In this document: piece by piece, positions 7,138-36,035 of the stretch
How the letters are laid out: each line of letters begins with the position of its first letter
How positions within the stretch are numbered: position 1 is the first letter of the stretch
Virus genome (UHGV): UHGV-0870948
Strand: one strand, 5' to 3'
Source: a virus
Length of the DNA: 43,859 nt
Program-made: the position numbers and the translations under genes
Notes under the pieces: model-generated
Databases searched by the model: none
What the model saw: the letters and a program-made list of their open reading frames with translations, nothing else
Told to the model about the DNA's origin: nothing

Positions 7138-7145
7138 TAGCAGGC
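7138..7145. repeat. Target-site duplication, right copy (TAGCAGGC)
   Basis: Identical to 4589-4596. Confidence 0.8.
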
Positions 7146-7288: not shown

Positions 7289-7307
7289 TTAGTAGGCTCC
7301 AGAAAGC

Positions 7308-7330
7308 AAAAAACCCGCCGAAGCGGGTTT
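7308..7330. terminator. Rho-independent (bidirectional) terminator downstream of the HEPN-like gene
   Basis: AAAAAA-CCCGC-CGAA-GCGGG-TTT: GC stem flanked by an A-run on one side and a T-run on the other. Confidence 0.65.
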
Positions 7331-7347
7331 GATAACGTTAATTTTAT

Positions 7348-8503: not shown

Positions 8504-8598
8504 GGATTATTTCTCTTACTAAAGGGATTGTGATTGTGAACTTTGAACAATATCTCGTCAACCTTAAAGCGCTCATCTCGGAAGATTGACATCAAACT

Positions 8599-8940: not shown

Positions 8941-8943
8941 TGC

Positions 8944-10005
8944 TCATCCCCTTTGCAAAGCCGATTGCGTATACAGATCCGCCGCGCCACGCGCTTCGCA
9001 CATCATATCCATGTACCACGCCTGGCCCCTTGTATCGCCAGTGTACATAATCCCGCGCACAATATAAACGCCATCCGTTGCGATGCTGGCAGGTTGTGCT
9101 GTGGTGCCGCTGAGCGTGATATTTCCGTCTGTGTTCTGGTCGGTGATCTGCCCACCAGCCATCGCGATATCATTGTTCGACAGCGCGGTGCGGTACACGG
9201 AAGCCTGATCCAGCTGAATAAGCCCGTTAACCCGGATGTTCGGATTAATAAGAGCGCGGACGTTTACGCCGTTACCGATAGTCTGCTGCGGCATGCCGAT
9301 AAGCCCGGTGGCGCTGTTGAGCACAATCGCGTCGTGAACATACTCGTTATTCGCCACCATCTGGCGCTGACCGTCCACAAATTGCCATGTTGCGCCACAT
9401 TGTCCGGCCACGTTATCCATAAGATGCCGTGTCATGCCGAACAGCACCCGCCCTCGAGGGTATACGGTAGCAGGCATTTCAGGCGTCAGTCCTTCGGTCG
9501 CGCCTTTGGCCTCAAAGTCTTTCATCAGCGCACGGTTCACATCTGCGACTGTGTAACCGGCAGCCAGCGTCTGTGAGGTTATACTGGTGGCAAATGCCAG
9601 ATCAGTATCTGCTGCCTGAATCAGGACGTAGGTATCAACCGGACTGTCTTTTCCTGTGACCGAGTAGCGAATTTCTCCGCTGAAAATCAGCCCGTAGTTG
9701 CGGCCATCACTCTGGCCCACGTCCGCCGCGTCAACTTCCCGCACAGTCCCGACGTCGCTTGCCGCCACCTCCGGCGCGATACCGTCGTAACCGGCAATCA
9801 GCCGCACTTTCGAAAACTCCTGCCCGGTAATTCGGTTCACAGTATCTGCCGAAAGGTTATAAATTTTGATAGTCCCTACCCGGGACGCGCTGCTGATGTT
9901 GAACCAGTCGATCGTAAAGGTGACTTTGAAATCACTTAGCTCAATTCCCTTACCGTTCCCGTCCACAAGCTGCAGCTCGAAATGTCTCATCCAGTTCTGT
10001 GACAT
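8944..10005 (-). CDS. Baseplate hub-like / tail protein
   Basis: 353-aa ORF in the tail operon shortly after the tape measure gene; functional call is positional. Confidence 0.45.
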   Translation of the reverse strand: MSQNWMRHFELQLVDGNGKGIELSDFKVTFTIDWFNISSASRVGTIKIYNLSADTVNRITGQEFSKVRLIAGYDGIAPEVAASDVGTVREVDAADVGQSDGRNYGLIFSGEIRYSVTGKDSPVDTYVLIQAADTDLAFATSITSQTLAAGYTVADVNRALMKDFEAKGATEGLTPEMPATVYPRGRVLFGMTRHLMDNVAGQCGATWQFVDGQRQMVANNEYVHDAIVLNSATGLIGMPQQTIGNGVNVRALINPNIRVNGLIQLDQASVYRTALSNNDIAMAGGQITDQNTDGNITLSGTTAQPASIATDGVYIVRGIMYTGDTRGQAWYMDMMCEARGAADLYTQSALQRG

Positions 10006-10007
10006 GC

Positions 10008-10310
10008 TTACTCCGTTGATACCAGCAAATGACTGCGCCCGCCCAGGTCAGTTTTCGTGGGATAATCCTGTGTGTTGTCATCGCAGACCACCAACAGCTT
10101 AAAACCAAGTCCCATACAGGCGTACTGCGCCAGCAGATCAGCGCCAGTGACGAGAGGAATACCGGAGATTACCGGCTCTCCTCTGTCGTTCTGCAGGTCC
10201 ATAATCCAGTAAGGATCGCGCCATATGATGCTAATCCGCCAGGTGACACCACCCAGGACGATGCTGAACTGCTGGTTGTCCGCTGTCAGCGGAATTTCCT
10301 GAATTGTCAT
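10008..10310 (-). CDS. Phage tail protein (hypothetical)
   Basis: 100-aa ORF coupled in the tail operon. Confidence 0.4.
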   Translation of the reverse strand: MTIQEIPLTADNQQFSIVLGGVTWRISIIWRDPYWIMDLQNDRGEPVISGIPLVTGADLLAQYACMGLGFKLLVVCDDNTQDYPTKTDLGGRSHLLVSTE

Positions 10311-10897
10311 TAGCCGCCTCCCAGTAATGACGCCACGTTACCCGTGATGCTTTTCAGCAGTGAAGTATCTGGAGGCTTTGTGGTTTTGTTACCGCTATTC
10401 TGTACCGCCGACGTGCTGGCCCCTTCCTTCATGTTGGTTTTATCCGCGACGGTAATCTGCTGTGTCCGGGAGATAATGACCTCCCTCAGGGTGAGGACGG
10501 CGGACAGGACGTTTTCGGTTGTCTTGTCCGTCGTCACTTCCAGCGCCCGGATCAACATGTTGCTGTACAGCCGTTTACCGGTTACCACATCGAAGGGGAT
10601 ACGGCTTTCCTGCAGATCCAGTAGCTCCTGATACGTCTGCTGAGGACTCAGGCCGAGCAGGCTGGTAGCTGTCAGATTACTGGCAAAATCCAGCAATGCG
10701 CCGCCACCGGCGAAACCAACCTCCATCACCACTTCTGACGGTTTTTTATAGGCATGATCAGCGACAGCGGCCCCGACCTCTACCGGATGCTCTGTTATTT
10801 CAAGCATATCTGTATGCTTCTCTGAAATAACAACACTGGGAACAATCATTCCTATTTTTCTGCTCTGCTGATGAAAAAGTGTAGAGAGAATATCCAC
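10310..10897 (-). CDS. Phage tail protein (hypothetical)
   Basis: 195-aa ORF immediately after the tape measure gene (stop/start overlap). Confidence 0.4.
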   Translation of the reverse strand: MDILSTLFHQQSRKIGMIVPSVVISEKHTDMLEITEHPVEVGAAVADHAYKKPSEVVMEVGFAGGGALLDFASNLTATSLLGLSPQQTYQELLDLQESRIPFDVVTGKRLYSNMLIRALEVTTDKTTENVLSAVLTLREVIISRTQQITVADKTNMKEGASTSAVQNSGNKTTKPPDTSLLKSITGNVASLLGGG

Positions 10898-12906
10898 TAA
10901 CCCACCCTCACCTGATTACTTCGCATGACCTGAGCATTTGCAGACTGTTGCCGACGTGCAACCTCATTACCGACAGCGTGCGGATCTCCGCCACCGTAAA
11001 TGTGGTAAGTATTTTGCTGGTTAACCTCTGTCATTTTGCCACTAATTCCCGCCACGGCAGCCTTATTAATCAGCTCTCGAGAATAGATATTTCTTCCATT
11101 TTCATGCTGGATAATGCTGCTCATCAATGCTGACATGGTTTGCGGATCGCTCATATTCAGGGCAGCCCGGGGATCCACTCCCAGTCGTTGCGATACAGCC
11201 CTGATATACGCAGTTGTGTTGTTATTATCAGACGCAGGTGCCCAGGTAGAGATAATTTTCTCCACACTGTTTATTCCCCGTCCGGCGTACAGCATTAACT
11301 GACGAGCAAGAGCCCGTAATCCATCAAAAGCAGTTTCAAATCTGGCAAATCGCCCGCCCGGGCGTTCAAGAGAAGCCCCTGCCTGACCAGCAAAATTAAG
11401 GTTTCCCGGATTGTTATTCCGTTCTCCTCGTTTCGTAGCCTGTGCATATTGTTCCGGCTCATCATCACCAAACCAGCCGCGTACCGTCCGGCCCACACTG
11501 CGGGGATCGAATCCCCAGTGCTCTTTAATCCAGTCGGCAGTACTGTTAGCGCTGTCTGTAACCATCGGCATCGCTGACGGATTTTCGCTGCCCTGATTAA
11601 GTATCTGTTTGCCGATGATGACGGCATCAGCCCAGCGGCCATCTTTGATAGCGTTGAGCAGGTCGGCGATCATGTTCAGCATTTTGCTGAATTCGCCCAT
11701 CTGGTCGATGAAGTTGCTGAAATCCCACTTCAGGGACCATGATTTGGGGTCAATATTGAGCAGTTTCGCCAGCGCTTTCGCCAGTTCATTAACAGACCCT
11801 TTCAGGTCACGAACCATCTTCAGCGCGGCATCGACCTCCGGCTTCCACTTGCCCCAGTCAATCAGGCTGTCGCCGCCTTCCTTCCAGGTCTGATAGTCCT
11901 CCCACAGAAGGGCAATCCCCGCCGCCAGCGCGGTAATGAGGCCAATCGGCGACATCCAGAACGTACTGTTCAGAATGCGCAGCGCAATCGTCAGCGCGCC
12001 AAACAGCGAGATGAGCTCCCGCGTTTGCTTATCCAGCGATTGCCACCAGGTGATAAGGCTGGATGTTCCCTCAATTAGCCTGAAGAACAGCCGCCCGATG
12101 ATGTCTCCGATCGCCAGAATGCCTTTTATGGCTTTCGTCAGGGTCTGCTCGATGCGCGGGAAGTTATCGAGGATGTGGCGGCGCAGTGTGTCCAGCGAAC
12201 CCGCCAGACCACCAGCAAGATTAGAGCCGATTTTGTCACGGGCCATGCCTGCCATCGCGCCGAACTCGCGCAGGGAGGTCATGAATTTGTTGGAGCTTCT
12301 GGCCGCCTCGTCAGCATTGAAGCCGATAGCTTTCGCCATTGCGCTGTACTGCCCGGAGAAATCACCCACACCCCGGCGCATCGCCATAAGGGTATTTTCG
12401 TCAATGCCTAGCATCTGCGCATACTGGTTAGCCCGGTAATACGGCATGCCGCTGAGCTTCTGGCCTACACCTGTAAAAATAGCGGCCATGTCACGCATGT
12501 TACCGCTGGCATCCCGTGTCTGTACCCCCAGGCGATTCAGGAATCCTTCCGCGCCGGGATTGTTACGAACAAACCGGGAGAGGCTTTCCAGAGAGGTTCG
12601 CGCCGCGTCCACGCTGCCGCCAACCTGCGAAACCGCATAGCCAATAGACTGAATTCCCTGGACTGTCGCGCCGGTGCGCTGTGACGCCCGGTAAAGATTA
12701 TCCAGGCCGGAGGCGATCTTAGCCGTGAAGGCCACCACGGACAGCGCAGCTCCTTCAACGGCCAGTCCCATTTTGATAGCATTTGCAGTTGTACCGGCGA
12801 GGACAGAACCGAACTTTTTCGCTCCTGCATCATCCACACTGAAGCCAAGCGAGACGAGGAAATCTTTAATAGTTTCAGCGTTCATTATCCTCTCTCCATT
12901 TCTCAA
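10897..12906 (-). CDS. Tail tape measure protein
   Basis: Largest ORF of the tail module (669 aa), Ala/Gly-rich helical, follows the chaperone gene. Confidence 0.6.
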   Translation of the reverse strand: MRNGERIMNAETIKDFLVSLGFSVDDAGAKKFGSVLAGTTANAIKMGLAVEGAALSVVAFTAKIASGLDNLYRASQRTGATVQGIQSIGYAVSQVGGSVDAARTSLESLSRFVRNNPGAEGFLNRLGVQTRDASGNMRDMAAIFTGVGQKLSGMPYYRANQYAQMLGIDENTLMAMRRGVGDFSGQYSAMAKAIGFNADEAARSSNKFMTSLREFGAMAGMARDKIGSNLAGGLAGSLDTLRRHILDNFPRIEQTLTKAIKGILAIGDIIGRLFFRLIEGTSSLITWWQSLDKQTRELISLFGALTIALRILNSTFWMSPIGLITALAAGIALLWEDYQTWKEGGDSLIDWGKWKPEVDAALKMVRDLKGSVNELAKALAKLLNIDPKSWSLKWDFSNFIDQMGEFSKMLNMIADLLNAIKDGRWADAVIIGKQILNQGSENPSAMPMVTDSANSTADWIKEHWGFDPRSVGRTVRGWFGDDEPEQYAQATKRGERNNNPGNLNFAGQAGASLERPGGRFARFETAFDGLRALARQLMLYAGRGINSVEKIISTWAPASDNNNTTAYIRAVSQRLGVDPRAALNMSDPQTMSALMSSIIQHENGRNIYSRELINKAAVAGISGKMTEVNQQNTYHIYGGGDPHAVGNEVARRQQSANAQVMRSNQVRVG

Positions 12907-13062
12907 TGCGCCGCTGGTTATCCGCTTTTACCGCCAGATGGTCATTCAAGAGAGCAATGTCGTACAAATCGACAGAGCCATCTTTAAGTGCTGTATAAGG
13001 AATTAACCCGGCGTCAACCGGATTGAGAAGGTAAGACAGCCCGTCCGGCAGGCTGTTAAACG

Positions 13063-13515
13063 TCAGCCCTGTTGCAGGCTCTGCGTCGTGCTGGTAAGGG
13101 GTGTAGGCAAAAAATTTCCCAGCGAATCGGCGACCACCCGCGCCACCAGATGCAGCATGACCAGCAAGTCAATATCATCAAACATCAGTTCGCCCTGGGT
13201 AAATACCGGAACCCATCCGTCCATATGACGCCGCGATACCACCGCAAGACAGGGATGAATAATCGCACTGGTGTCATCTTCGGTCAGGGAAGACAGTTCC
13301 TCAGCGATACGCGGGAGCATGGTTTCAAACACCGGTTTTAACTGCTCGAATTTCACGGTGTCGATTTTGCCATCAGCAGGCAAACGGGAGCGAATGCTCC
13401 CGAAATCTGACATCATTCCTGCCAGCACAGGCAGAAGTTTGCGGGTCACTTTCAGCTGATCAAAAACGCTGAGTTTTGCCGCGCGATATTTCACGCCTTT
13501 GATTTCGAATTCCAT
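13063..13515 (-). CDS. Tail assembly chaperone (putative)
   Basis: 150-aa ORF between the tail tube and tape measure genes. Confidence 0.45.
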   Translation of the reverse strand: MEFEIKGVKYRAAKLSVFDQLKVTRKLLPVLAGMMSDFGSIRSRLPADGKIDTVKFEQLKPVFETMLPRIAEELSSLTEDDTSAIIHPCLAVVSRRHMDGWVPVFTQGELMFDDIDLLVMLHLVARVVADSLGNFLPTPLTSTTQSLQQG

Positions 13516-13518
13516 GTA

Positions 13519-13959
13519 TTAAAACTCCCCGAGAACCTGGTCAATCTTGCCGCAGTCAAACACCCACGGCATCGTATTACCGGTTTTAGCGTTGGCATTA
13601 TCCGGTTGTTTCTGGAACGCAACACTACGTGCCGTGATGATGTCGCCGCTGACCTTGTTTCGGATCACAATAACGTTATTCCCCCATGTGGCAGAAGACT
13701 GGCTCTGTGCGTTATACGCCAGCGACAATTTTTTATTTGTCGGTGATGTCTTCAGAAGGTTAACGGTAATCGTCCCGCTTTTATCTGCATGGAGACTGTG
13801 CATCACTTCGCCATCAGCACCGATGGTCATGGTGTTTTTAGGGCCGCCCATCGCAACCACAATCCCCTCTTCAGAACTTGCAGAACCGTACCCGAGGTCA
13901 ATCGAACCGGTCGGCCCGGTCAGCGTCGCAGTGACATCCATAAAAGAATAGGTAGACAT
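13519..13959 (-). CDS. Tail tube protein (putative)
   Basis: 146-aa ORF immediately after the sheath gene. Confidence 0.55.
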   Translation of the reverse strand: MSTYSFMDVTATLTGPTGSIDLGYGSASSEEGIVVAMGGPKNTMTIGADGEVMHSLHADKSGTITVNLLKTSPTNKKLSLAYNAQSQSSATWGNNVIVIRNKVSGDIITARSVAFQKQPDNANAKTGNTMPWVFDCGKIDQVLGEF

Positions 13960-13969
13960 TCACTTCCCC

Positions 13970-15115
13970 TTAGCGAACAACGTTAATCTGTACGTCAGCG
14001 TAATGAACCGCGCCTGCAAGTTTTATTGCAGCCTGAATCACCGGAGCCTTACGGGCTTCACGTTCTGATTGTGCCTGTTCATCCAGCGGCTGGGCGTATA
14101 CGTAATAACCTTTGGGCAGCGTGTCACCTGATGACAACTGGCCAAGGTCGCCCCCGTTCCATACGCCCGGAGCAATCAGTCCATTCTGAACGGCCTGATC
14201 CAGTGATTTTTCAACATTTGATAACAGTCGGGTAATACCGGCTTCAGTCTGGGGAACTTTCGTGGCGCTGGTATAAAGCAGGTTATAGAGGTTGGTCTGC
14301 ACATAATTCTGTAACCAGTCCAGGCCGTGGCGTTCATCAAAGAAATCGCCGTTAGCCATCACTCCCTGCTGGAGGATAGCTGTATCATTCTGGTAGTACA
14401 CGAACACATTGCAGTTTTTTGCATCAAGTGCCGATGCCTGGCTGACTGTCAGTGTTTCATACCCGACACCCGGCTCCTGCTTAAACTTGAGCGTAATCGC
14501 GGTATTACTGCCATTGAAATTAACCGTGAATGCCCGGCCAAATGCAGATAACGCAGCGTATTTATTACCCGATGAATACTGAATAAAACTGCGTGAATAT
14601 CCGGCGGTTTTCAGTTTTGATGCCAAATCATCGCTGGATGCAGTCTGCAGGCATTTCTCATCGCTTGTCGTAATCGCCAGAATACGGCTTACAGAAGAGG
14701 ATTCGATCGCCGCAGCCACTTTCAGCCAGTCTGCATCCGGAATATCTTCATCGTCTGCAATCCCCAGCCCATACCATGAAGTATAATCGAGCATGGCATT
14801 CACAGCCTGCTCCAGCGTCTCAGTCGTGGCCTGTTCGCTGTCTCCCTTCGTTTTCACCCAACGACCAACAAAAACCTCCTGAGGTTTCGGTGATTGTGAG
14901 AAAAACACCTGCGCAGCCTTATATTCTGGTGATTCCACGCCAAAATCTTTTCCAATATCTTCCGCGGCAGAATAACGACGAATGCGCTCACTTACCGGAA
15001 TGATTGTGGACGGGCCGAGAATGAGTAATGCACCAAAATTTCGCCCTGATGCTGCACGCGGCGACATGATCACATCAACATTAACAACGTTTGATACAGG
15101 CAAGCCCTGTGCCAT
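13970..15115 (-). CDS. Tail sheath protein (putative)
   Basis: 381-aa ORF preceding the tube gene; sheath-tube-chaperone-tape measure order. Confidence 0.6.
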
Positions 15116-15118
15116 AGC

Positions 15119-15727
15119 TTAATCTCCGAAAAAGATGACTGGTGCTTCCACCAGCGATTTAATACCGTACTCGCGCACAACCTTCCGGCGCAGACGCACC
15201 GTCATATCGTAGCGGCGGACCCATTGCTGATTAATAAGTTCAGGGAAGGGAGTCAGACCTGTGTAATCGCCAAGAGACAGCCCCAGCGCATTCAGTGCTG
15301 CGTTGTTCTGCGGTACAGATATACCGTCACGAAACCGGGACGCATACACCATCCCCGCCGGACCATAAAACGAAGCCATACACTCAATCGTTTCATGCCG
15401 CCAGAGCTGAGAGCCATCATCGGTCTGTCTGGTGAATGCCGGACTGTCATCACCTGACCATCCGATAACCCCAAACGCACACCAGTTCGTTTCAACCGGT
15501 AGCAGTGGCGGCTGCTCTTTCTGCCAGCGCGGGCGAACCATCCCGGCAGACAGACCGGAAACGTTACGCATCCACTGGCTTAACAGCCTGTCGAGCGCTT
15601 CGTCATAATCCGGATCGCCACTGGTTGGTATCAGCCATCCGCGCTCTGTGCTGGTGTTATTGCTCAACCGGAATTCCCCCATCAAACGGCAGCAACTCAC
15701 AATGCGCCTGAACGAATCCGGCACCAT
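15119..15727 (-). CDS. Phage head-tail joining/tail completion protein (hypothetical)
   Basis: 202-aa ORF in the operon between the capsid and sheath genes. Confidence 0.35.
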   Translation of the reverse strand: MVPDSFRRIVSCCRLMGEFRLSNNTSTERGWLIPTSGDPDYDEALDRLLSQWMRNVSGLSAGMVRPRWQKEQPPLLPVETNWCAFGVIGWSGDDSPAFTRQTDDGSQLWRHETIECMASFYGPAGMVYASRFRDGISVPQNNAALNALGLSLGDYTGLTPFPELINQQWVRRYDMTVRLRRKVVREYGIKSLVEAPVIFFGD

Positions 15728-16046
15728 ACGCTGTATACGGGTCGACGAAAGTCACACGATAATCACGGCCCTGATACGTCACGATATCGGCATCACGGCC
15801 AGTCTGTCCCTGTGTCAGTAGCTCAGTCGTCACAATCAGAATTGCACCACTGATTACCTGCCCAGCCTGCATACGACGGTTTTCCAGAGAGCGATCAACA
15901 GTTACGACTCCGGCAAACTGCTTTTTAACTTCACTGTCGCTGCCGATCCCGTCATCGTCCACCGTTTGCACGCGACGCGTTACCCACAGGTTGAAGTCGC
16001 AAAAATCGGGGTCAAAAAGCACGTCTGTTACATCAAGAGTCGGCAT
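15657..16046 (-). CDS. Phage structural protein (hypothetical)
   Basis: 129-aa ORF in the operon. Confidence 0.35.
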   Translation of the reverse strand: MPTLDVTDVLFDPDFCDFNLWVTRRVQTVDDDGIGSDSEVKKQFAGVVTVDRSLENRRMQAGQVISGAILIVTTELLTQGQTGRDADIVTYQGRDYRVTFVDPYTAYGAGFVQAHCELLPFDGGIPVEQ

Positions 16047-16587
16047 CTTTATCCCTCACTACATGGGTAATAGCTCTGCGGTACTGTCCGGTGTCAATTA
16101 GCGGTTTCACCAGATCGGTTCCAGGAGACTCACCAGCAGCGCGCCGCGCAAGTTCCGCTTTTGCCCCTTTGCGCCCTCGACGTGCACGGGCTTCAACAGT
16201 GCTGTCAGCAAGCGGCGTAAAGCCGGTAATAGTCATGTAACGCCTGACGCCATTAGCGGCCAGCGTTCCGGCACGGTTGAGCGCTCTTTCCGCACCCGAC
16301 GCATTACCATCAAGCGCAGCCTGCGCAGCTGCTTTGAGCTGCGGCACTGTCTGTCCCTCTACCGATTTAACGCCGGGGGTCAGGTGCGGGCGTGGGGGGA
16401 TGTTTTGCGCTGGTGAGCCGTATTCGTTGACATAGCCGATCCCGGCATTACCAAACGGAACATCTTCACGCTCGCTGTCTTCCGAAGGGATGCCGACCAG
16501 CACATCCTTTTTGGTTAGCGATCTGAGCGCATCCAGAATGGCCTGAGCGTTATCCACCCTCGTTGTTACACCGCTTTTGAAGCTCAT
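16033..16587 (-). CDS. Phage structural protein (hypothetical)
   Basis: 184-aa ORF coupled in the operon. Confidence 0.4.
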
Positions 16588-16991
16588 AGCTGGCGACCGC
16601 CTGCACCAAACATCGTGATCAACTGATAAAATTCAGCGCCATATCGGGTGTTATTCCAGAAACCTGCATCAGGATTCAGCGTCGCGCTGGTGTCATAGCT
16701 GACGCTTACCTTGTCAACAGACTTAGAGGATTGAACACCATTGGTTGAACCGCCCGGGCCGCCAACCAGCATTGCCCGACTATCTGCCGCCCATAGCGTC
16801 ATGTAGTGCGCAACGAACAACCCGGCAAAGTACGGAAACAACTTTTTCCCGGTGACGTTTTCGCTCAGCAGTTCATCGGCCAGATTCAGACGAAACTGGA
16901 TTTGCGCTTCGGGATATTTGGCAGGGTCAGCAAACTGCGGGAAGTCGCGGCGAAAATCACTTACCGCTGGCAGACTTTGATTCTTTGGCAT
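16584..16991 (-). CDS. Phage head-tail connector-like protein (hypothetical)
   Basis: 135-aa ORF in the operon. Confidence 0.4.
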
Positions 16992-17178
16992 TTTTTACCT
17001 CGTTACGCGCGTCTGTGGCTTTGCCAACGGATACCTCCGCGTGCGCACGAGTGAACCAGTGCGTGGCAACTTCTTCCTCCACAGCATGACGGCCTTTAAC
17101 AAACTCGCGCCGTGAACCGTCGGGAAGCGTGAGCACAAACGGGGTATGTACGTGTATTACTGCATTATTTTTTGCCAT
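16957..17178 (-). CDS. Small phage protein (hypothetical)
   Basis: 73-aa ORF directly downstream of the capsid gene. Confidence 0.3.
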
Positions 17179-17220
17179 CGGGTCATCCTTAATGGCCCCC
17201 GCCAGGGGGCCATGTGGCTG

Positions 17221-18162
17221 TTAAATGCCATCAACGTACGAAATGGTTTCTTTGTACACTGGCTCAACCGCACCCAGCTTGCCGTAGTAGGTCGCAATCT
17301 GATACAGACCACGATACTGGATAGGAACGCTCTGCAACGGCACCAGCGGATAGCGCACGTATTTCTTGTCGTTGGTGTACGCAACCATGCGATCCTTATC
17401 CCCCACACCACGGCCTTTCAGCCATTTAACCGCGCGGATATTCAGCGGAACACCGTTCTGGTGATAGCTGATGGTGTTGGTCTGAAGATACGTCAACAGG
17501 GACTGGTTCCCCGCAGATGAAACGATGATGCTGGACAACAGAGCAAACTGCTCAGGCGGGATCAGCAAATCACGCGGAACCACAGAGTAACCGGAAGCGG
17601 CCCACGCATCAGACAGCACCTGGTTAATGCTTGCGCGGATTTCGTCCGGTGTTGAGGTTGCCCACGTTTTGGCAGCGTTGTTGACAGGAACACCGTTCAG
17701 GGTAACAAGGCCTTTCAGGTTTAATGCGGAATCGCCAACATACACCTGTTCATCGTTATCCATCTGCCATTTCAGTTGCATCCCGTCATACTTCTGCGTA
17801 TCAATCGGGCGTCCGACCTGCTGAGCAGCCTGCAATTCTATGACCGTCCAGCCAAGTTCCATCCCCCACAGGTTCAGCGGGTTACCGGATTTGCCGATAT
17901 CCACGTTCACGCCAGCAATAGCGGTTGAGTCTTTGCCTACCCAGTTTTTGCCATTCGGATTTGCGCCAGTACCCGCAGCGGCGAAGCTGGTATTCGTCCA
18001 GCTGGAAATGTCATCTGCGATGGAGACATCTTCACGCAGTTGGATATCGCGGGTCCAGGTGTACCCCACCAGTGGCAGGTTCAGCGTCTGGTCGAGTCGT
18101 TCCAGCTCCCCGATGAGAAAGGCACCAGAGCTGTCAACGGTTGCCTGATCAAAAGTAATCAT
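17221..18162 (-). CDS. Major capsid protein (putative)
   Basis: 313-aa ORF following the scaffold/decoration genes, with GC-rich hairpin downstream. Confidence 0.6.
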   Translation of the reverse strand: MITFDQATVDSSGAFLIGELERLDQTLNLPLVGYTWTRDIQLREDVSIADDISSWTNTSFAAAGTGANPNGKNWVGKDSTAIAGVNVDIGKSGNPLNLWGMELGWTVIELQAAQQVGRPIDTQKYDGMQLKWQMDNDEQVYVGDSALNLKGLVTLNGVPVNNAAKTWATSTPDEIRASINQVLSDAWAASGYSVVPRDLLIPPEQFALLSSIIVSSAGNQSLLTYLQTNTISYHQNGVPLNIRAVKWLKGRGVGDKDRMVAYTNDKKYVRYPLVPLQSVPIQYRGLYQIATYYGKLGAVEPVYKETISYVDGI

Positions 18163-18173
18163 TCGTCTGTTCC

Positions 18174-18677
18174 TTAAATCTTCCAGGAAATTTCTGCATT
18201 GCCGTTAGCATCACCGGCACCTGTGAATTCAGCGTTGGTCAGCACCACGTTTTTGCCACTGACTGACGTGGCCATGAATCCACCCAGCGGCACTTTGATG
18301 GATGCATCAGTGGAGACGACAACGTATACCGGGTCGCCTTTTTTGATGGTGCTGGCATCAAAATCAGAACCGAGATTAACGGTCACGTAGCCACGCTTCA
18401 TTGCGTCGCCCGGGAAGTTCTTGCCACTCCCCACCTGGCGAACCATGTCCGGCTGCGAAGTGGTCGGATAAGGGCGCACATAGATCCCCTTCACCTTGTC
18501 TGCGGTATCACCATCTGCCAGCGGCACGAAAAAACCGTCATCATCGTATTTACCAGCCAGCCCATAGGCAGCGAAGGCGTTATCGGATTTAAGGACCACC
18601 GGTTCGACGGTTAAGTCCTGCGGGCGAGAGATAGCCCCGGCAATGCCAACAGGCATCCGGTACAGATATGCAGTCAT
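18174..18677 (-). CDS. Head decoration/structural protein (putative)
   Basis: 167-aa ORF between the scaffold-like and capsid genes. Confidence 0.4.
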   Translation of the reverse strand: MTAYLYRMPVGIAGAISRPQDLTVEPVVLKSDNAFAAYGLAGKYDDDGFFVPLADGDTADKVKGIYVRPYPTTSQPDMVRQVGSGKNFPGDAMKRGYVTVNLGSDFDASTIKKGDPVYVVVSTDASIKVPLGGFMATSVSGKNVVLTNAEFTGAGDANGNAEISWKI

Positions 18678-18681
18678 TGGA

Positions 18682-19902
18682 TTATCCTTTGCGGTTAGAC
18701 CAGAATTCGGCGTTTTGTTTGTTCAGGGAAGCGATGCTGGTCATGCCCATATTTTGGCGCTGTGCATCGCCGGTGGTGGCGCGGGTGTTTCGCCCTTTGG
18801 CAATCTCAGACACGGCATTAAACGCCATGTCGACCGATTGTTTCGGCAATTTGCGGATATCCGCATCACCGACGATCTGGCGAACCAGCGTTTTATCTGC
18901 GGAAGCCAGAACCTCGCGTTTGAACGCGGTCGGTTTCATCTTACGGCTCAGATCGATACCCGGAACGATAACTTCGGCACGCCAGGCTGAGTCACCAGTA
19001 ATCGTGGTTTCCTCTTCATCGTCCTCGCCGTCACCGGTCGGATTATCGTCAGGCTTATTGTCGTTATCGCCCGTCGCATTTCCTTCCAGCTTAGCCAGCA
19101 GGGCTTTCAGTAATGTTTTGAGGTCATCATCACTGTCGCCGGTTGGACCTCCACCCATCTCTGGTGCTTTGTCCGGTAGTGGTTGCTGCGGGGACAGGTT
19201 GATGTTGAGATTAACGCCCTGCGGCAAATCCCCCTCATCTCCTGTAACCGATGCGGGAGCCGACTCCACCAGTTCGTTCATGGTGTCGGCATCTCCTGTC
19301 TTGATGGCTGCACGCATGCGGTTCCACCAGTTTTTCTTTTGATTTGCCATTGTGTCTCTGTCTCCAATTGCACAACGATTTCCGGCTCTGCCTTTGGGGA
19401 CAAGAGCCACATGGTTTCCGTTAATATCGACCTGCTCGGCTTTACCTGGCTCGGTCTGCTCGTACTCCGCGTCATAGCCGCACGACACTTCACGCAGGCC
19501 ATCTTCGATAAGCTGAATGGCGTTTTCGTCTTTGACGATAAGGTCAGCCAGCATCAAATCAGACTGCTCACCCGTCCCGCGCCGGACATTCTGGAGGTGC
19601 CCGACCGCAAGCTCTTTCCAGTTCTCGGGATTTACCAGCCGCACATTCCCGTTTTCATCTTCAGGATGCAGGATCGTGATGCTCATCCCTTCGAATGAGG
19701 CGAGCGTGGCCGGATGGAATACCTGCTCAGGAGAACGCGTTACGACTATCTCACCGAGCTTGTCGGGTTTGAGGTTTGGCAGATCGGCAGCGCCATAGAG
19801 CTGCTTACCCGTTCGACCTATCGGCACGTCTTTGCACAGCAGCGAGCCGTCAGCCAGCTGATAGCGGGTTTCCCCCAGCCGGGTATTGAAAAAATATTTC
19901 AT
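18682..19902 (-). CDS. Head scaffolding / prohead protein (putative)
   Basis: 406-aa ORF with highly acidic low-complexity central region (DSDDD, GDGEDDEEE). Confidence 0.45.
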   Translation of the reverse strand: MKYFFNTRLGETRYQLADGSLLCKDVPIGRTGKQLYGAADLPNLKPDKLGEIVVTRSPEQVFHPATLASFEGMSITILHPEDENGNVRLVNPENWKELAVGHLQNVRRGTGEQSDLMLADLIVKDENAIQLIEDGLREVSCGYDAEYEQTEPGKAEQVDINGNHVALVPKGRAGNRCAIGDRDTMANQKKNWWNRMRAAIKTGDADTMNELVESAPASVTGDEGDLPQGVNLNINLSPQQPLPDKAPEMGGGPTGDSDDDLKTLLKALLAKLEGNATGDNDNKPDDNPTGDGEDDEEETTITGDSAWRAEVIVPGIDLSRKMKPTAFKREVLASADKTLVRQIVGDADIRKLPKQSVDMAFNAVSEIAKGRNTRATTGDAQRQNMGMTSIASLNKQNAEFWSNRKG

Positions 19903-19916
19903 GGTTTACCTGCGAT

Positions 19917-20690
19917 TCAGGCGAGATAAGAATGAGGGTTGGGAAAAACGATTTCTTTATAACAGCGACAATTCGGGAGCTCGCCAGCGTGACCGGTCAT
20001 GCCATCAAGCGTTGGAGGTTTGCCCCATTCGACAAACTTACCTTCCATCTCCCGATGAGAATGCCGGACGTCGCCATCTTCGGCTGTACGCCAGATATAA
20101 CCATTCGAGCCGATTGACAGCGCACGCGCCTGATCCAGCGCGCCGGTTGCACGTCCAAGCTCGGTACGGGCGATAAGGTTCGCTCGTGAGCGTGACACGT
20201 CACCGGACGCTGCTATCTCTTTCGCGAATGGTTCAGCGCGGCCACCAGACACAACGGCCTCGATGGCCTTGTTCTGAATGTCATACACCCGATCGGCGGC
20301 CTCAAGAGGCAGTGACTTGATGTACTTAATTTGCTCGGCGACGATGGATTTCATCACCTGGCCTACCGGGGCGCGGTCGACCATGTTGCGCAGCTCTGCG
20401 CTGATGTTCCTGCTGTGCTGACGCCACTGCTTTTCATTCTGGCGCGCAATGTCGGCGGTAAAGTTCTCAGCAACCTTCGTCGCCCAGGGGGTGATGATTT
20501 CGCTGTAGCGCTCCAGCGCATCCATTATTTCGGTGACACTGTCATTTGAACCATCGTAGCGACCATTTACGATATCCCCGACCGCCCGCGCTATCTGCCG
20601 TAGGCTCGCTCGATATCGGATCTCCGCCTGGCGACTCTGGCGGTTTGTCGCCAAGTTCGCCGATGCCTGGCGGCGCTTCGTCTTCGGCAT
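19917..20690 (-). CDS. Minor head / head morphogenesis protein (Mu F / SPP1 gp7-like)
   Basis: 257-aa ORF after the portal gene; true start is probably an internal codon because the longest ORF overlaps the portal 3' end. Confidence 0.6.
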   Translation of the reverse strand: MPKTKRRQASANLATNRQSRQAEIRYRASLRQIARAVGDIVNGRYDGSNDSVTEIMDALERYSEIITPWATKVAENFTADIARQNEKQWRQHSRNISAELRNMVDRAPVGQVMKSIVAEQIKYIKSLPLEAADRVYDIQNKAIEAVVSGGRAEPFAKEIAASGDVSRSRANLIARTELGRATGALDQARALSIGSNGYIWRTAEDGDVRHSHREMEGKFVEWGKPPTLDGMTGHAGELPNCRCYKEIVFPNPHSYLA

Positions 20691-30921: not shown

Positions 30922-31114
30922 GACTTCCCTCTCTAACAGATTTCAGGTTATTCCACTCCGTTACCGCACTGCGATAATTCGCGGCCGCCACAGCGGCGTG
31001 GTTAGCGCAGTAGATTTGGCACCCGTTCTCCATGTCGAATATTGTCGGTAATTTTCCGCATTTACATTTTTTGGCACGCGGTGCGTCTGAACACATTCCG
31101 TTAACGGTGTCCAT
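30911..31114 (-). CDS. Small Cys-rich protein (putative zinc-binding)
   Basis: 67 aa with C-x-C...C-x3-C pattern, downstream of the helicase gene. Confidence 0.4.
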   Translation of the reverse strand: MDTVNGMCSDAPRAKKCKCGKLPTIFDMENGCQIYCANHAAVAAANYRSAVTEWNNLKSVREGSHES

Positions 31115-33851: not shown

Positions 33852-33900
33852 ATGTAAGTATTTCCTTAACTAATAAGAAGTTATGCGCATCAACTTATGC

Positions 33901-33943
33901 GCGTTGTATTCCCGCATTTCGGCTGGAATGAGGACCATGACTG
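33901..33943 (-). promoter_or_regulatory. nutR-like site (boxA CGCTCTTTAACA plus imperfect boxB hairpin)
   Basis: Minus strand between cro and cII reads CGCTCTTTAACA...CCAGCCGAAATGCGGG; boxA and the loop are identical to the nutL copy. Confidence 0.5.
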
Positions 33944-33959
33944 TTAAAGAGCGGTGTTA

Positions 33960-34154
33960 CTATTTGTTTTTCTTGTTGCTTGGGAAAGGACGAACTTCCT
34001 CTCCAATCACACTGCCATCAGGCTTTACCGTAACCATAATGTTACGGCCTGCCAGAATGGCCTTGCTGATAGCGCACTGGATTACACCAAAGTCACTGGC
34101 TGCTTTAGCCTGTCCATGGATTTTGGCGTAATCGGCAAGTGTCATTCGAATCAT
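33960..34154 (-). CDS. cro: Cro repressor
   Basis: [64 protein letters not shown]; lambda Cro-like throughout. Confidence 0.85.
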
Positions 34155-34184
34155 ATGCACTCTCCGTTATTAACCATGAACAAA

Positions 34185-34226
34185 GAATACTACAGGTATT
34201 CAAAGCAATCAATACTCAGGGTATTT
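34185..34226. promoter_or_regulatory. OR operators (two 17-bp sites) overlapping divergent PR/PRM promoters
   Basis: GAATACTACAGGTATTC and CAATACTCAGGGTATTT, 25 bp centre to centre, in the cro-cI intergenic region; minus-strand -35 TTGATT / -10 TATTCT candidates. Confidence 0.65.
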
Positions 34227-34319
34227 TTAGTTTAAGTACCTTAGCTATTAGAATTAAGCTATGGAAAATAAAAATCACTGACGACAGAACAGCTGGAAGA
34301 CGCTAAGCGGCTTAAGGCT

Positions 34320-34976
34320 TTGTATGAGTCAAAAAAGAAAGAATTGGGAATAACACAATACTCAATCGCTGATGAACTGGGTATCACCCAAGGAGCGGTA
34401 GGGCATTATCTTAATGGCAGAAACGCGCTAAACGTTGAGGTTGCATCTGGTTTTGCACGACTGTTGCAAGTCTCAATTGCTGATTTTAGCCAGTCAATTG
34501 CTGCCAAGGTTGCAGAACAGGCAGAAAGCCTTAAGAGCGATGCCAACGTAAGGTATGCAGGGGAATACAGAGCAGGAAAGAGGTATCCGGTGTTAAGCAG
34601 TATCCAGGCTGGCTCGTGGTGTGAAGCATGCGAACCATACACCATTAAAGACATAGATGTTTGGCTTGAGTCTGACGCGCATATTCAAGGTAATGCGTTC
34701 TGGCTTAAAGTGGAAGGTGATTCAATGACGGCACCGGTTGGGTTAAGCATTCCAGAGGGAACATTCGTTCTTTTCGATACCGGAAGGGAGGCGATCAACG
34801 GCAGCTTGGTCATAGCAAAACTTTCTGACTCTAACGAAGCAACATTCAAGAAGCTGATAATCGACGGCGGAAATAAATACCTCAAGGGACTTAATCCTGC
34901 ATGGCCTCTCGTGCCAATCAATGGAAACTGCAAGATTATAGGCGTTGCAATTGAGACAAAACTAAGGCTGGTTTGA
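34320..34976 (+). CDS. cI: CI-type prophage repressor (HTH plus LexA-like S24 peptidase domain); N-terminus frame-disrupted upstream
   Basis: ORF-track product 218 aa from TTG; the frame stays open back to 34272 and encodes conserved KSLTTEQLEDAKRLKAL, but the only ATG (34261) is in another frame. Confidence 0.8.
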   Translation: MYESKKKELGITQYSIADELGITQGAVGHYLNGRNALNVEVASGFARLLQVSIADFSQSIAAKVAEQAESLKSDANVRYAGEYRAGKRYPVLSSIQAGSWCEACEPYTIKDIDVWLESDAHIQGNAFWLKVEGDSMTAPVGLSIPEGTFVLFDTGREAINGSLVIAKLSDSNEATFKKLIIDGGNKYLKGLNPAWPLVPINGNCKIIGVAIETKLRLV

Positions 34977-34993
34977 TCACGCAAGGGGCGATT

Positions 34994-35362
34994 ATGGTTG
35001 GAACCGCTATAGCAAGCTTTTTTGGGATGTTGGCAATCTCGACAATTTACGGCTTAGCGCATGCTTTTATTGCGAAATCTCTATCAGAAAAAATAAGCCA
35101 GGCTTGGGCGCATAGATTAGCTCGTTTCATGATTCTGGTGATCATAGCAATACAAGGGATATCTGCATTTATCCTCTATGGTTCAAGCTTATACCTGTTG
35201 TATCAAGGCGCGACATTTACGCCTTACACCAGTGATTACGGAACGCTATACGATGGTAGTGAAGACATCTCTATGGCTTGGATCGTCTTTGGTTTATCTA
35301 TGGCCGTGTCTGTTGTAGCAGACATCATTAAGGTAATTCTCGTCTTAACCTTCGCTGACTAA
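34994..35362 (+). CDS. Small polytopic membrane protein in the rexAB position (candidate exclusion protein)
   Basis: About 122 aa from ATG 34994 with AAGGGG RBS; three to four hydrophobic helices; overlaps or abuts the cI stop. Confidence 0.5.
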   Translation: MVGTAIASFFGMLAISTIYGLAHAFIAKSLSEKISQAWAHRLARFMILVIIAIQGISAFILYGSSLYLLYQGATFTPYTSDYGTLYDGSEDISMAWIVFGLSMAVSVVADIIKVILVLTFAD

Positions 35363-35492
35363 CCTATAATCCCGGCAGCAATAGCTATCGGGATCCACTT
35401 CACATATCCCGCATAAAAAGCACTGAACAAGCAGACACCGAAAAAATAAATATCCTTTGTATTCATTTGCTTATCATTATTTCATCAAAAAT

Positions 35493-35535
35493 AAATACCT
35501 TGGGTATTTACACAATAAAATACCTACAGTATTCT
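35493..35535 (+). promoter_or_regulatory. OL operators (two 17-bp sites) overlapping PL
   Basis: AAATACCTTGGGTATTT and AAATACCTACAGTATTC, 25 bp apart; -35 TTTACA (35507-35512), 17-bp spacer, -10 TATTCT (35530-35535). Confidence 0.65.
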
Positions 35536-35580
35536 TTAGCCATCAGCAGGACGCTGGAAGCCAAACGGAACAGATTGGCA

Positions 35581-35621
35581 GGCTCTTTAACATTGATGGG
35601 ATTGTCCCGCCGAAATGCGGG
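35581..35621 (+). promoter_or_regulatory. nutL (boxA GCTCTTTAACA and boxB hairpin CCCGC-CGAAAT-GCGGG)
   Basis: Located between PL and the N gene; same boxA and loop as nutR. Confidence 0.6.
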
Positions 35622-35729
35622 AACCAAAGAGTAGTTGGCTTTGGGGTGACGTGAAGTGCAGCTGCACGACGGCAACCGGAAGATAAGCACCCGGCGCGTC
35701 ACCGCCAAAGTCAATCATCGGAGGTCAAC

Positions 35730-36035
35730 ATGACAGTAGTCATTACATATCTGGCTGACGATAACGCCAGAAATCGCCGCAGAGCACGCAGACAGGCTCA
35801 ACGTGAACAGGCAATGCAAGAGCAGCGACTGGCGCGAAAAATTGCGCTAAAGCTCTCTGGTTGCGTCAGGGCAGACAAAGCAGCATCACTCGGAAGCCTT
35901 CGCTGCCAGAAGGCAGAAGAAGTCGAGCGTAAACAGAACCGTATTTACTACCGCAAGCCACGCAGTGAAATGGGTGTGACATGCTCAGGCCGCCAGAAGC
36001 AACGCGGAAAATCAATTCCAGCTTATTACGATTGA
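35730..36035 (+). CDS. N: N-type transcription antiterminator
   Basis: Arg-rich N-terminus (NARNRRRARRQAQREQ) and C-terminus ...YYRKPRSEMGVTCSGRQKQRGKSIP matching lambda N. Confidence 0.8.
   Translation: MTVVITYLADDNARNRRRARRQAQREQAMQEQRLARKIALKLSGCVRADKAASLGSLRCQKAEEVERKQNRIYYRKPRSEMGVTCSGRQKQRGKSIPAYYD

What the first reader, a model, noticed from the sequence alone, without database searches (positions are those of the whole stretch)
34185..35535. Immunity specificity: four 17-bp operators with consensus AATAC-N5-GTATT, two at OR and two at OL
Seen in sequence: GAATACTACAGGTATTC and CAATACTCAGGGTATTT lie between cro and cI; AAATACCTTGGGTATTT and AAATACCTACAGTATTC lie upstream of N. Each pair is spaced 25 bp centre to centre and overlaps -35/-10-like hexamers (TTTACA/TATTCT at PL; TTGATT/TATTCT at PR on the minus strand). 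Only two clear sites per operator region were found, not three as in lambda.
Basis: seen in the sequence. Interest (0 to 1): 0.45.

Follow-up and report, generated by a model that had tools for sequence, protein, structure and literature searches.

The report
HK620-type phage repressor operators
The four palindromes are real and are the repressor and Cro binding sites of the already-annotated phage HK620 immunity region, a close copy of the lambda switch; each side also has a weaker third site, so the finding is correct but ordinary.

Summary
Observation confirmed. AATAC-N5-GTATT occurs exactly four times in 43.9 kb (0.04 expected), only at 34186-34200, 34211-34225, 35494-35508 and 35519-35533. 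The two sites of each pair are 25 bp apart and overlap the PR and PL hexamers.

The region is the phage HK620 immunity module: DNA 98.9% identical, Cro identical, cI one substitution. GenBank AF335538 already annotates OR1-3, OL1-3, pR and pL there. The module occurs in 16 phage records and 146 of 5,426 complete E. coli genomes.

The claim of only two sites per operator is not supported. OR3 lies at 34234-34250, two core mismatches, 24 bp from OR2, fused to the PRM -10. Thirty related prophages (cI DNA-binding domain 59-83% identical) keep sites about 67, 43 and 19 bp upstream of the cI ATG, and OR3 is never perfect.

On the left, the HK620-annotated OL3 position does not match the motif. A one-mismatch site at 35448-35464, 45 bp from OL2, does, and a site recurs at that spacing in six relatives.

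cI and Cro are clear lambda homologues, so this is a lambda-type switch with different specificity.

Side finding: cI here has a 1-nt deletion (A5, not A6) seen in none of 162 other records.

The parts
33960..34154 (-). cro (64 aa, lambda Cro family). Recognition helix [10 protein letters not shown].
   Evidence: Pfam Cro PF09048, E=3.6e-26. Lambda Cro structures match at E=4.7e-19. Amino-acid sequence identical to HK620 Cro.
34185..34201 (.). OR1, GAATACTACAGGTATTC. Overlaps the PR -10.
   Evidence: Exact motif match. Same position as OR1 annotated in HK620. A site 64-69 bp upstream of the cI ATG is perfect in 20 of 30 related loci.
34184..34189 (-). PR -10, TATTCT.
   Evidence: Sequence read. 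Lies inside the HK620-annotated pR.
34207..34212 (-). PR -35, TTGATT, with a 17-nt spacer to the -10.
34210..34226 (.). OR2, CAATACTCAGGGTATTT. Overlaps the PR -35. Its centre is 43 bp upstream of the cI ATG.
   Evidence: perfect in 16 of 30 relatives.
34234..34250 (.). OR3, AAGTACCTTAGCTATTA. Weak site with two core mismatches, 24 bp from OR2. Its right half overlaps the PRM -10.
   Evidence: Sixth best matrix score in the window. Annotated as OR3 in HK620. A site 17-21 bp upstream of the ATG has one mismatch in 18 and two in 6 of 30 related loci, and is never perfect.
34249..34254 (+). Putative PRM -10, TAGAAT. It is followed by 6 nt and then the cI ATG, so the cI mRNA is probably leaderless.
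   Evidence: Sequence. A TA(G/C/A)(A/T)AT hexamer lies at about the same distance from the ATG (within a base) in most of the 30 relatives. The transcription start is inferred by analogy with lambda PRM.
34261..34976 (+). cI repressor gene (HTH_3 plus Peptidase_S24). It is interrupted by a 1-nt deletion in the A-run at 34270-34274.
   Evidence: HK620 cI starts at this ATG. Pfam domains. Lambda repressor 3bdn matches at E=1.1e-51. The frameshift is shown.
34994..35362 (+). hkaS-like gene of unknown function, in the position lambda gives to rex.
   Evidence: Annotated as hkaS in HK620. phrog_6534, unknown function, E=3e-78. No Pfam match.
35448..35464 (.). Candidate OL3, AAATATCCTTTGTATTC. One core mismatch, 45 bp upstream of OL2.
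   Evidence: Fifth best matrix score in the window. Invariant in 9 close relatives. A site at exactly 45 bp occurs in L010, L012, L014, L022, L037 and L038, and is perfect in L037 and L038.
35471..35487 (.). Position annotated as OL3 in the HK620 record, TTATCATTATTTCATCA. Not supported as an operator.
   Evidence: Matrix score -13.3, rank about 15,000. Three columns of this 17-mer vary among 9 relatives that are 99% identical overall.
35493..35509 (.). OL2, AAATACCTTGGGTATTT. Overlaps the PL -35.
35507..35512 (+). PL -35, TTTACA.
   Evidence: The HK620-annotated pL begins here.
35518..35534 (.). OL1, AAATACCTACAGTATTC. Overlaps the PL -10.
35530..35535 (+). PL -10, TATTCT, with a 17-nt spacer.
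35730..36035 (+). N-like antiterminator gene, the first gene of the PL operon.
   Evidence: phrog_271, anti-termination protein N-like, E=7e-36. HK620 annotates N and nutL here.

Best explanation
This is the immunity region of a lambdoid phage with HK620 immunity, and it works as a lambda-type bistable switch with a different DNA specificity. The cI repressor and Cro, both as dimers, recognise 17-bp pseudo-palindromes with half-site n-A-A-T-A-C-(C/T). On the right, three sites lie between cro and cI. OR1 and OR2 are strong, sit 25 bp apart and cover the -10 and -35 of PR, so repressor bound there shuts off cro and the replication genes. OR2 is centred 43 bp upstream of the cI start, the position from which lambda repressor activates PRM. 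OR3 is deliberately weak and overlaps the PRM -10, which is followed after 6 nt by the cI ATG. It therefore serves Cro repression and cI negative autoregulation of a leaderless cI mRNA. On the left, OL1 and OL2 cover the -10 and -35 of PL and block N expression. A third, near-consensus site 45 bp further upstream is the probable OL3. cI keeps the Ala-Gly cleavage site and the Ser/Lys dyad, so induction should be RecA-dependent. What is shown here: the sites, their spacing, their overlap with the promoter hexamers, the homology of the proteins, and conservation of the sites in relatives. What is inferred: binding itself, cooperativity, activation of PRM, the leaderless start, and any role for OL3.
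For: The motif is exact four times and only at these places. The region is 98.9-99.4% identical to phages HK620, mEpX2, HK630, HK140 and HF4s. The HK620 record annotates OR1-3, OL1-3, pR, pL, cI, cro and N at the same positions. Cro is identical to HK620 Cro, and cI differs by one residue once the frameshift is corrected. cI has HTH_3 and Peptidase_S24 domains and Cro belongs to the lambda Cro family. cI aligns end to end with lambda repressor 3bdn (E=1e-51), keeping QAG, G(D/N)SM and FKKL, and Cro aligns with lambda Cro (E=5e-19). Thirty distinct prophage loci from Yersinia, Serratia, Pantoea, Pectobacterium, Proteus, Morganella and others have a cI DNA-binding domain 59-83% identical, with helix-3 region QGAVGHYLNGRN nearly invariant. 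Most also encode a Cro with the helix Q-x-A-I-S-K. In these loci the motif sits 64-69, 40-45 and 17-21 bp upstream of the cI ATG. Positions 2, 4, 5, 13, 14 and 16 of OR1 are invariant in 30 of 30, while the spacers vary freely. OR3 is never perfect: C at position 6 occurs in 8 of 30 loci, against 29 of 30 at OR1. Left-hand pairs 24-25 bp apart occur in 18 loci (the window and 17 relatives), and in the window and 6 of those relatives a third site lies exactly 45 bp upstream. The published Cro code pairs Gln H1 with A2, Ala H3 with A5 and Lys H6 with C6 (PMC6649833). It predicts A2, A5 and C6 for this Cro helix, and all three are observed.
Against: No binding, footprint or reporter data for this repressor were found in the open-access library, and the primary HK620 paper could not be read. 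The operator assignment therefore rests on sequence and homology only. By score alone, OR3 (11.5) is no better than the best chance hit elsewhere in the window (11.48 at 31037-31053). Its support comes from position and from conservation in relatives. The left part of the 45-bp element (AAAAATAAAT(A/T)CC) is also conserved in relatives whose right half does not match and which carry a third site at 21 bp instead. This element may therefore be conserved for another reason. As sequenced, the window's own cI is frameshifted, so the switch may not be functional in this particular genome.
Confidence: 0.9

Rival explanations
1. One reading: the switch is bipartite, with only two functional operators on each side and no OR3 or OL3.
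For: Only four sites match the core exactly. OR3 has two core mismatches, and its matrix score equals the best chance hit elsewhere in the window.
Against: A third site 17-21 bp upstream of the cI ATG, fused to the PRM -10, is present with one or two mismatches in 24 of 30 related loci. In Serratia phage OS31 it has a single mismatch. HK620 annotates it as OR3. The two best non-training matrix hits in 43.9 kb both fall within 50 bp of the strong sites.
Confidence: 0.08
2. OL3 lies where the HK620 GenBank record puts it, at window 35471-35487, 22 bp from OL2 and contiguous as in lambda. On this view the site 45 bp upstream is irrelevant.
For: The HK620 annotation. A spacing of 21-22 bp is lambda-like, and five relatives do have a real third site at 21 bp.
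Against: The sequence TTATCATTATTTCATCA matches 4 of 10 core positions and scores -13.3. Three of its columns vary among relatives that are 99% identical overall. None of the relatives with the 45-bp arrangement has a motif match at 21-22 bp, with the possible exception of a two-mismatch match in L022.
Confidence: 0.07
3. The element at 35448-35464 is conserved for a reason other than repressor binding. It could be an A-tract or UP-like element, a host-factor site upstream of PL, a secondary PL2-like promoter, or part of the end of the cI-hkaS transcript. On this view its resemblance to an operator is partial ancestry or chance.
For: The left part AAAAATAAAT(A/T)CC and the downstream TCAT are conserved even in loci where the right half-site is absent and position 5 is T (L013, L015, L016, L017, L020, L021, L025). 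A spacing of 45 bp is about 4.3 helical turns, which is not in phase with OL2. From memory, lambda has IHF sites and a PL2 promoter upstream of PL.
Against: In L037 and L038 the site at 45 bp is a perfect AATAC-N5-GTATT. The window's version, AAATATC...GTATTC, carries the same C6-to-T variant found in 8 of 30 genuine OR2 sites. Nothing else in the window scores as high.
Confidence: 0.28
4. The palindromes are not phage operators at all. They would be chance inverted repeats or sites for an unrelated host protein.
For: There is no direct binding data.
Against: Four exact copies against 0.04 expected, all of them over PR and PL hexamers. The sites are conserved at fixed distances from cI in 30 loci that share the cI and Cro recognition helices. 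They also agree with the Cro recognition code.
Confidence: 0.01

Closest known systems
Immunity region of coliphage HK620 (GenBank AF335538 / NC_002730; Clark et al. 2001, J Mol Biol 311:657, seen as a citation). The same module is in phages mEpX2, HK630, HK140, HF4s, phi296 and phi367.
   Same: The DNA is 98.9-99.4% identical over 1.85 kb. OR1, OR2, OR3, OL1 and OL2 are base-for-base identical. Cro is identical and cI differs by A66T. Gene order is the same: cro, OR, cI, hkaS, OL, nutL, N.
   Different: The window has a 1-nt deletion in the A6 run of cI codons 4-5 that no other record shows. The rest of the window is a different mosaic, with a contractile-tail structural module related to phages 611R5 and SEN34 rather than the P22-like virion genes of HK620. 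My placement of OL3 (35448-35464) differs from the HK620 annotation (35471-35487).
Phage lambda OR/OL, cI and Cro genetic switch.
   Same: The operators are 17 bp with a central base-pair dyad. Three sites lie between divergent PR and PRM, spaced 25 and 24 bp; from memory, lambda has 24 and 23 bp. O1 covers the -10 and O2 the -35. OR3 is weak and lies over the PRM -10, and the cI ATG follows a few nucleotides after that -10. cI is homologous over its full length (E=1e-51; DNA-binding domain 52% identical). Cro is in the same family (E=5e-19). Half-site positions A2, A5 and C6 are shared.
   Different: Half-site positions 3-4 are A-T here, against T-C in lambda (TATCAC, from memory). This matches the changes in cI helix 3 (Q-S-G-V-G-A-L-F in lambda, Q-G-A-V-G-H-Y-L here) and in the Cro helix (Q-S-A-I-N-K in lambda, Q-C-A-I-S-K here), so the phages should be heteroimmune. 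The probable OL3 lies 45 bp from OL2 rather than about 20 bp. hkaS replaces rexAB.
Serratia phage vB_SspS_OS31 (MT843276) and about 30 Enterobacterales prophages carrying a 'QGAVGHYLNGRN' repressor.
   Same: The motif and layout are the same. In OS31, OR sites are spaced 25 and 24 bp, OL1 and OL2 are 25 bp apart, and a third site lies 45 bp upstream. The PRM -10 is fused to OR3 and the Cro helix is Q-x-A-I-S-K.
   Different: The cI DNA-binding domain is only 59-83% identical and the spacers are unrelated in sequence. The third left-hand site is at 21, 30 or 45 bp depending on lineage. Most of these loci lack hkaS.

Membership tests
HK620 immunity type (imm HK620) | Repressor and Cro essentially identical to those of HK620. 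| tested here: met
   Cro is 64 of 64 identical. cI is 237 of 238 identical after restoring the missing A. As sequenced, the cI frame is broken at codon 5.
HK620 immunity type (imm HK620) | Operator sequences identical to those of HK620. | tested here: met
   OR1, OR2, OR3, OL1, OL2 and the site at 35448-35464 are identical to HK620 in the alignments.
HK620 immunity type (imm HK620) | Homoimmunity: an HK620 lysogen excludes this phage, and the reverse. | not testable with these tools
   This needs cross-plating on lysogens.
Lambda-type cI/Cro switch | cI has an N-terminal helix-turn-helix domain and a C-terminal S24 self-cleavage domain with Ala-Gly, Ser and Lys. | tested here: met
   HTH_3 and Peptidase_S24. 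The alignment to lambda repressor keeps QAG, GDSM and FKKL.
Lambda-type cI/Cro switch | Cro belongs to the lambda Cro family and is transcribed divergently from cI. | tested here: met
   PF09048, E=3.6e-26. Lambda Cro structures match at E=4.7e-19. cro is on the minus strand and cI on the plus strand.
Lambda-type cI/Cro switch | Three 17-bp pseudo-palindromic sites between PR and PRM. O1 and O2 lie over PR, and a weaker O3 lies over PRM. | tested here: met
   for the window. for 30 relatives. This is met at the sequence level only.
Lambda-type cI/Cro switch | Three sites at OL. | tested here: inconclusive
   OL1 and OL2 are clear. The third is a one-mismatch site 45 bp away, supported by six relatives, but its left flank is also conserved in loci without a full site. 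The annotated contiguous OL3 does not match the motif.
Lambda-type cI/Cro switch | Both proteins bind the operators, with opposite site preference, pairwise cooperativity and OL-OR looping. | not testable with these tools
   No experimental data were found.
Cro recognition code (Hall, Lefevre and Cordes 2005, as summarised in PMC6649833) | Gln H1 pairs with A at +2, Ala H3 with A at +5, and Lys H6 with G at -6 (C at +6). | tested here: met
   The Cro helix I-Q-C-A-I-S-K has Q at H1, A at H3 and K at H6. At OR1 in 30 loci, half-site position 2 is A in 30, position 5 is A in 30 and position 6 is C in 29. The code is as quoted.

The most novel reading that the evidence does not exclude
The third left operator of the HK620 immunity family is not contiguous with OL2, as it is in lambda and as the GenBank record annotates it. 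It sits 45 bp upstream (35448-35464), out of helical phase with OL2. OL would then be a 2+1 arrangement, and its contribution to long-range OL-OR looping and PRM autorepression would differ from the lambda model. Related lineages place this site at 21, 30 or 45 bp, so the family would be a natural series for testing how OL3 geometry matters.
Probability: 0.55. Interest if true: 0.3.

Novelty: already known. Interest (0 to 1): 0.15.

Why it matters
It matters little beyond correct annotation. The result fixes the immunity type of this phage as HK620. It predicts that the phage is heteroimmune to lambda and homoimmune to HK620, mEpX2, HK630, HK140 and some Stx2c phages. The module is common, occurring in 146 of 5,426 complete E. 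coli genomes.

Two by-products are modestly useful. First, a family of at least 30 repressor, Cro and operator sets across Enterobacterales shares one specificity, with a systematically weakened OR3. Second, the annotated OL3 of HK620 is probably misplaced. The private frameshift in cI matters for anyone using this sequence: either the assembly has a homopolymer error, or the phage cannot make normal repressor.

Tried and rejected
1. I tested the HK620-annotated OL3 at window 35471-35487. It has no motif match (score -13.3) and varies among close relatives, so I rejected it as an operator.

2. I looked for experimental work on HK620 operators or immunity in the paper library. I also tried to open Clark et al. 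2001 by DOI. Nothing usable was held.

3. I considered whether the 35-aa hydrophobic minus-strand ORF (35466-35359) explains the conservation of the distal site. The ORF is annotated only in HF4s, has no Pfam or PHROG match, and is cut to 8-14 codons in the relatives that keep the site (read by eye from the sequences). I rejected it as the explanation.

4. I considered programmed frameshifting at the A-run. A -1 slip after the AAA codon would restore the wild-type peptide. However, the sequence is not a canonical slippery heptamer and A5 is too short for efficient transcriptional slippage. A simple deletion or a sequencing error is more likely.

5. I looked by eye for an IHF consensus and a terminator hairpin between hkaS and OL. 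Neither was convincing, and the scan tool found no terminator there.

6. PR does not pass the promoter scan's threshold (8 of 12). I kept it because of its position and the HK620 annotation.
Full report
**1. The observation**

The four 17-mers are present at the stated coordinates. An exact scan for AATAC-N5-GTATT on both strands of all 43,859 bases returns only these four, at 34186-34200, 34211-34225, 35494-35508 and 35519-35533. Dinucleotide-preserving shuffles give an expectation of 0.04, and none of 100 shuffles reached four. Within each pair the centres are 25 bp apart.

- PL, plus strand: TTTACA at 35507-35512 and TATTCT at 35530-35535.
- PR, minus strand: TTGATT at 34212-34207 and TATTCT at 34189-34184.

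In both cases the -10 is made of the last five bases of the promoter-proximal operator plus a T, and the -35 overlaps the end of the second operator.

**2. What the region is**

Gene order around the sites is as follows:
- cII, cro and the replication genes on the minus strand;
- the right-hand sites;
- cI and a small gene of unknown function on the plus strand;
- the left-hand sites;
- nutL and an N-like gene on the plus strand.

A megablast of 33900-35750 finds 16 phage records covering at least 80% of the query, 12 of them in full, at 98.6-99.4% identity. They include HK620, mEpX2, HK630, HK140, HF4s, phi296, phi367 and two Stx2c-converting phages. The same module is in 146 of 5,426 complete E. 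coli genomes.

The HK620 GenBank record (AF335538) annotates OR1, OR2, OR3, pR, cI, hkaS, OL3, OL2, OL1, pL, nutL and N in this stretch. Cro is identical in amino-acid sequence to HK620 Cro. cI differs by one residue (A66T) once a frameshift is corrected. The finding is thus a rediscovery of an annotated feature. The paper behind that annotation (Clark et al. 2001) appears as a citation but is not held.

**3. The proteins**

- cI has HTH_3 and Peptidase_S24 domains, and Cro matches Pfam Cro at E=3.6e-26.
- cI aligns over its whole length with lambda repressor (3bdn, E=1.1e-51). It keeps the Ala-Gly cleavage site (QAG), the catalytic Ser (GDSM) and Lys (FKKL).
- Cro aligns with lambda Cro at E=4.7e-19.
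- The cI DNA-binding domain is 52% identical to lambda's.

Both regulators are therefore true lambda homologues with altered recognition helices. In cI, lambda Q-S-G-V-G-A-L-F-N becomes Q-G-A-V-G-H-Y-L-N. In Cro, Q-S-A-I-N-K becomes Q-C-A-I-S-K.

From my own knowledge of the lambda complexes, cI Gln44 reads A2, Ser45 reads base pair 4 and Asn55 reads base pair 6. Here Gln and Asn are kept and Ser is lost. This fits a half-site that keeps A2, A5 and C6 but changes positions 3-4 from T-C to A-T.

The published Cro code pairs Gln H1 with A+2, Ala H3 with A+5 and Lys H6 with G-6 (PMC6649833). It predicts A2, A5 and C6 for this Cro, and all three are observed.

**4. Third sites**

Allowing mismatches adds 34235-34249 (two mismatches) and 35449-35463 (one mismatch). 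I built a symmetric weight matrix from the four strong sites. With it, these are the 5th and 6th best of about 44,000 positions, scoring 13.7 and 11.5. The next hit scores 11.48, inside the helicase gene.

Score alone therefore does not prove OR3, but position does. OR3 lies 24 bp from OR2, in the 34-bp gap between OR2 and the cI ATG, and it is the OR3 annotated in HK620.

The OL3 annotated in HK620 corresponds to window 35471-35487 (TTATCATTATTTCATCA). It scores -13.3.

**5. Comparative test**

Close relatives are too similar to be informative, although two details are worth noting. All operators and the 35448-35464 site are invariant in nine of them. Three columns of the annotated-OL3 17-mer vary.

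A tblastn search found Serratia phage OS31, whose cI DNA-binding domain is 83% identical. Its layout is the same as the window's:
- OR sites at 2425, 2450 and 2474, spaced 25 and 24 bp, with 0, 1 and 1 mismatches;
- OL sites at 3374 and 3349;
- a third site at 3304, again 45 bp upstream of OL2.

A scan of one genome per species then gave 30 prophage loci with a cI DNA-binding domain 59-83% identical, plus one weak partial match that was not analysed. The genera include Yersinia, Serratia, Pectobacterium, Pantoea, Lonsdalea, Proteus, Morganella, Photorhabdus, Enterobacter, Kluyvera and others. The cI helix-3 region QGAVGHYLNGRN is nearly invariant among them. Most loci also encode a lambda-family Cro with the helix Q-x-A-I-S-K.

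Results anchored on the cI ATG, for 30 distinct loci (the window plus 29 relatives):

| Site | Distance upstream of cI ATG | 0 mismatches | 1 mismatch | 2 mismatches |
|---|---|---|---|---|
| OR1 | 64-69 bp | 20 | 8 | 2 |
| OR2 | 40-45 bp | 16 | 10 | 1 |
| OR3 | 17-21 bp | 0 | 18 | 6 |

The characteristic OR3 defect is loss of C at position 6, which is C in 8 of 30 loci at OR3 against 29 of 30 at OR1. At OR1, positions 2, 4, 5, 13, 14 and 16 are invariant, while the central five bases and the spacers vary freely.

The right half of OR3 (GGTATTA) runs into a TA(G/C/A)(A/T)AT hexamer, which is followed after about 6 nt by the ATG. This leaves no room for a Shine-Dalgarno sequence. From memory, it is the geometry of lambda PRM with its leaderless cI mRNA.

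The right operator is therefore tripartite, with a conserved weak OR3.

**6. The left operator**

Pairs of sites 24-25 bp apart were found downstream of cI in 18 loci, the window and 17 relatives. A further site (up to two mismatches) lies upstream of OL2 at one of three spacings:
- exactly 45 bp in the window, L010, L012, L014, L022, L037 and L038, with perfect consensus in L037 and L038;
- 21 bp in L013, L015, L016, L020 and L021;
- 30 bp in L017.

The window's site (AAATATCCTTTGTATTC) carries the C6-to-T variant that is also found in 8 of 30 OR2 sites. I therefore place OL3 at 35448-35464.

There is one caveat. The A-rich left flank and the left half (AAAAATAAAT(A/T)CC) are conserved even in the lineages with the 21-bp arrangement, where the right half is absent. 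Part of this element may therefore have another role. Also, 45 bp is about 4.3 helical turns, so adjacent-dimer cooperativity with OL2 cannot be assumed. I put the probability that this is a genuine repressor site at about 0.65.

**7. Mechanism**

The best-supported model is the lambda switch with a new specificity.
- cI dimers at OR1/OR2 and OL1/OL2 occlude PR and PL.
- cI at OR2, centred 43 bp upstream of the cI start, activates a PRM with a weak -35 (candidates TTTAGT or TTAGTT).
- OR3 gives Cro repression of PRM and cI autorepression at high concentration.
- RecA-stimulated self-cleavage induces the prophage.

Shown here: the sequences, spacing, overlaps, protein homology and conservation. 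Inferred: binding order, cooperativity, PRM activation, looping and the leaderless start.

**8. A side finding that bears on function**

The window has five A's at 34270-34274 where HK620 and eight other fetched relatives have six. An 80-nt query across this point matches all 146 E. coli genomes and all 16 phage records at 98.8%, spanning 81 nt in each listed record, and none at 100%.

As sequenced, cI reads MENKNH-stop. The next in-frame canonical start is TTG at 34320, which would remove the first 20 residues. This is either a homopolymer sequencing error or a genuine cI-null mutation. The tools cannot tell which.

**9. Verdict**

The 'two sites, not three' point is wrong for OR and probably wrong for OL. 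The feature is already annotated for phage HK620 and works like lambda. The only small novelties are the likely mis-annotation of OL3 and the breadth of the family that shares this specificity.

Noticed in passing
window 34270-34274 (cI codons 4-5): The window has a 1-nt deletion in an A6 run (A5 here). cI therefore reads MENKNH-stop, and the next in-frame canonical start is TTG at 34320. All 9 aligned relatives, all 146 E. coli genomes and all 16 phage records with this module have A6. This is either a homopolymer sequencing error or a private cI-null mutation.
   Followed up: yes
window 35359-35466, minus strand: A 35-codon hydrophobic ORF (MNTKDIYFFGVCLFSAFYAGYVKWIPIAIAAGIIG) runs divergently from PL, and its start codon overlaps the candidate OL3. 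It is annotated only in phage HF4s, has no Pfam or PHROG match, and is cut to 8-14 codons in more distant relatives. It is probably not a gene.
   Followed up: partly
window 35471-35487 (= AF335538 7888-7904): The OL3 feature in the HK620 GenBank record falls on a sequence with no resemblance to the operator consensus (4 of 10 core positions). The 'tIMM terminator' annotated just upstream (window about 35444-35474) also shows no obvious GC-rich hairpin.
   Followed up: partly
window 34994-35362, plus strand: This is an hkaS-like gene in the position lambda gives to rexAB, co-transcribed with cI. It belongs to phrog_6534 (unknown function) and has no Pfam match. The sequence looks like a small multi-pass membrane protein, so it is a candidate prophage-expressed exclusion function. 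This was not tested.
   Followed up: partly
L013, L015, L016, L020, L021 versus L010, L012, L014, L022, L037, L038 (left operator regions): Within one repressor-specificity family, the third left-hand operator sits 21, 30 or 45 bp from OL2 depending on lineage. An A-rich element, AAAAATAAAT(A/T)CC, about 45 bp upstream of OL2 is conserved in nearly all of them. Its role is unknown.
   Followed up: partly
relatives L005 (HK140), L007 (E. coli 162.2) and H34, H35, H49, H50, between nutL and N (window about 35600-35730): Several otherwise 99% identical immunity regions carry an insertion of about 200-250 bp between the nutL region and the N start. The matches split into two pieces, and the loci are 2,055-2,102 bp where the query is 1,851 bp.
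   Followed up: no
window 1-20000 versus 20000-43859: The genome is a mosaic. The structural half is 96% identical to contractile-tail phages vB_EcoM-611R5 and 606R2 and is related to Salmonella phage SEN34. The early region matches P22-like and lambda-like phages and Stx phages. No record in the phage collection covers 80% of either half.
   Followed up: partly
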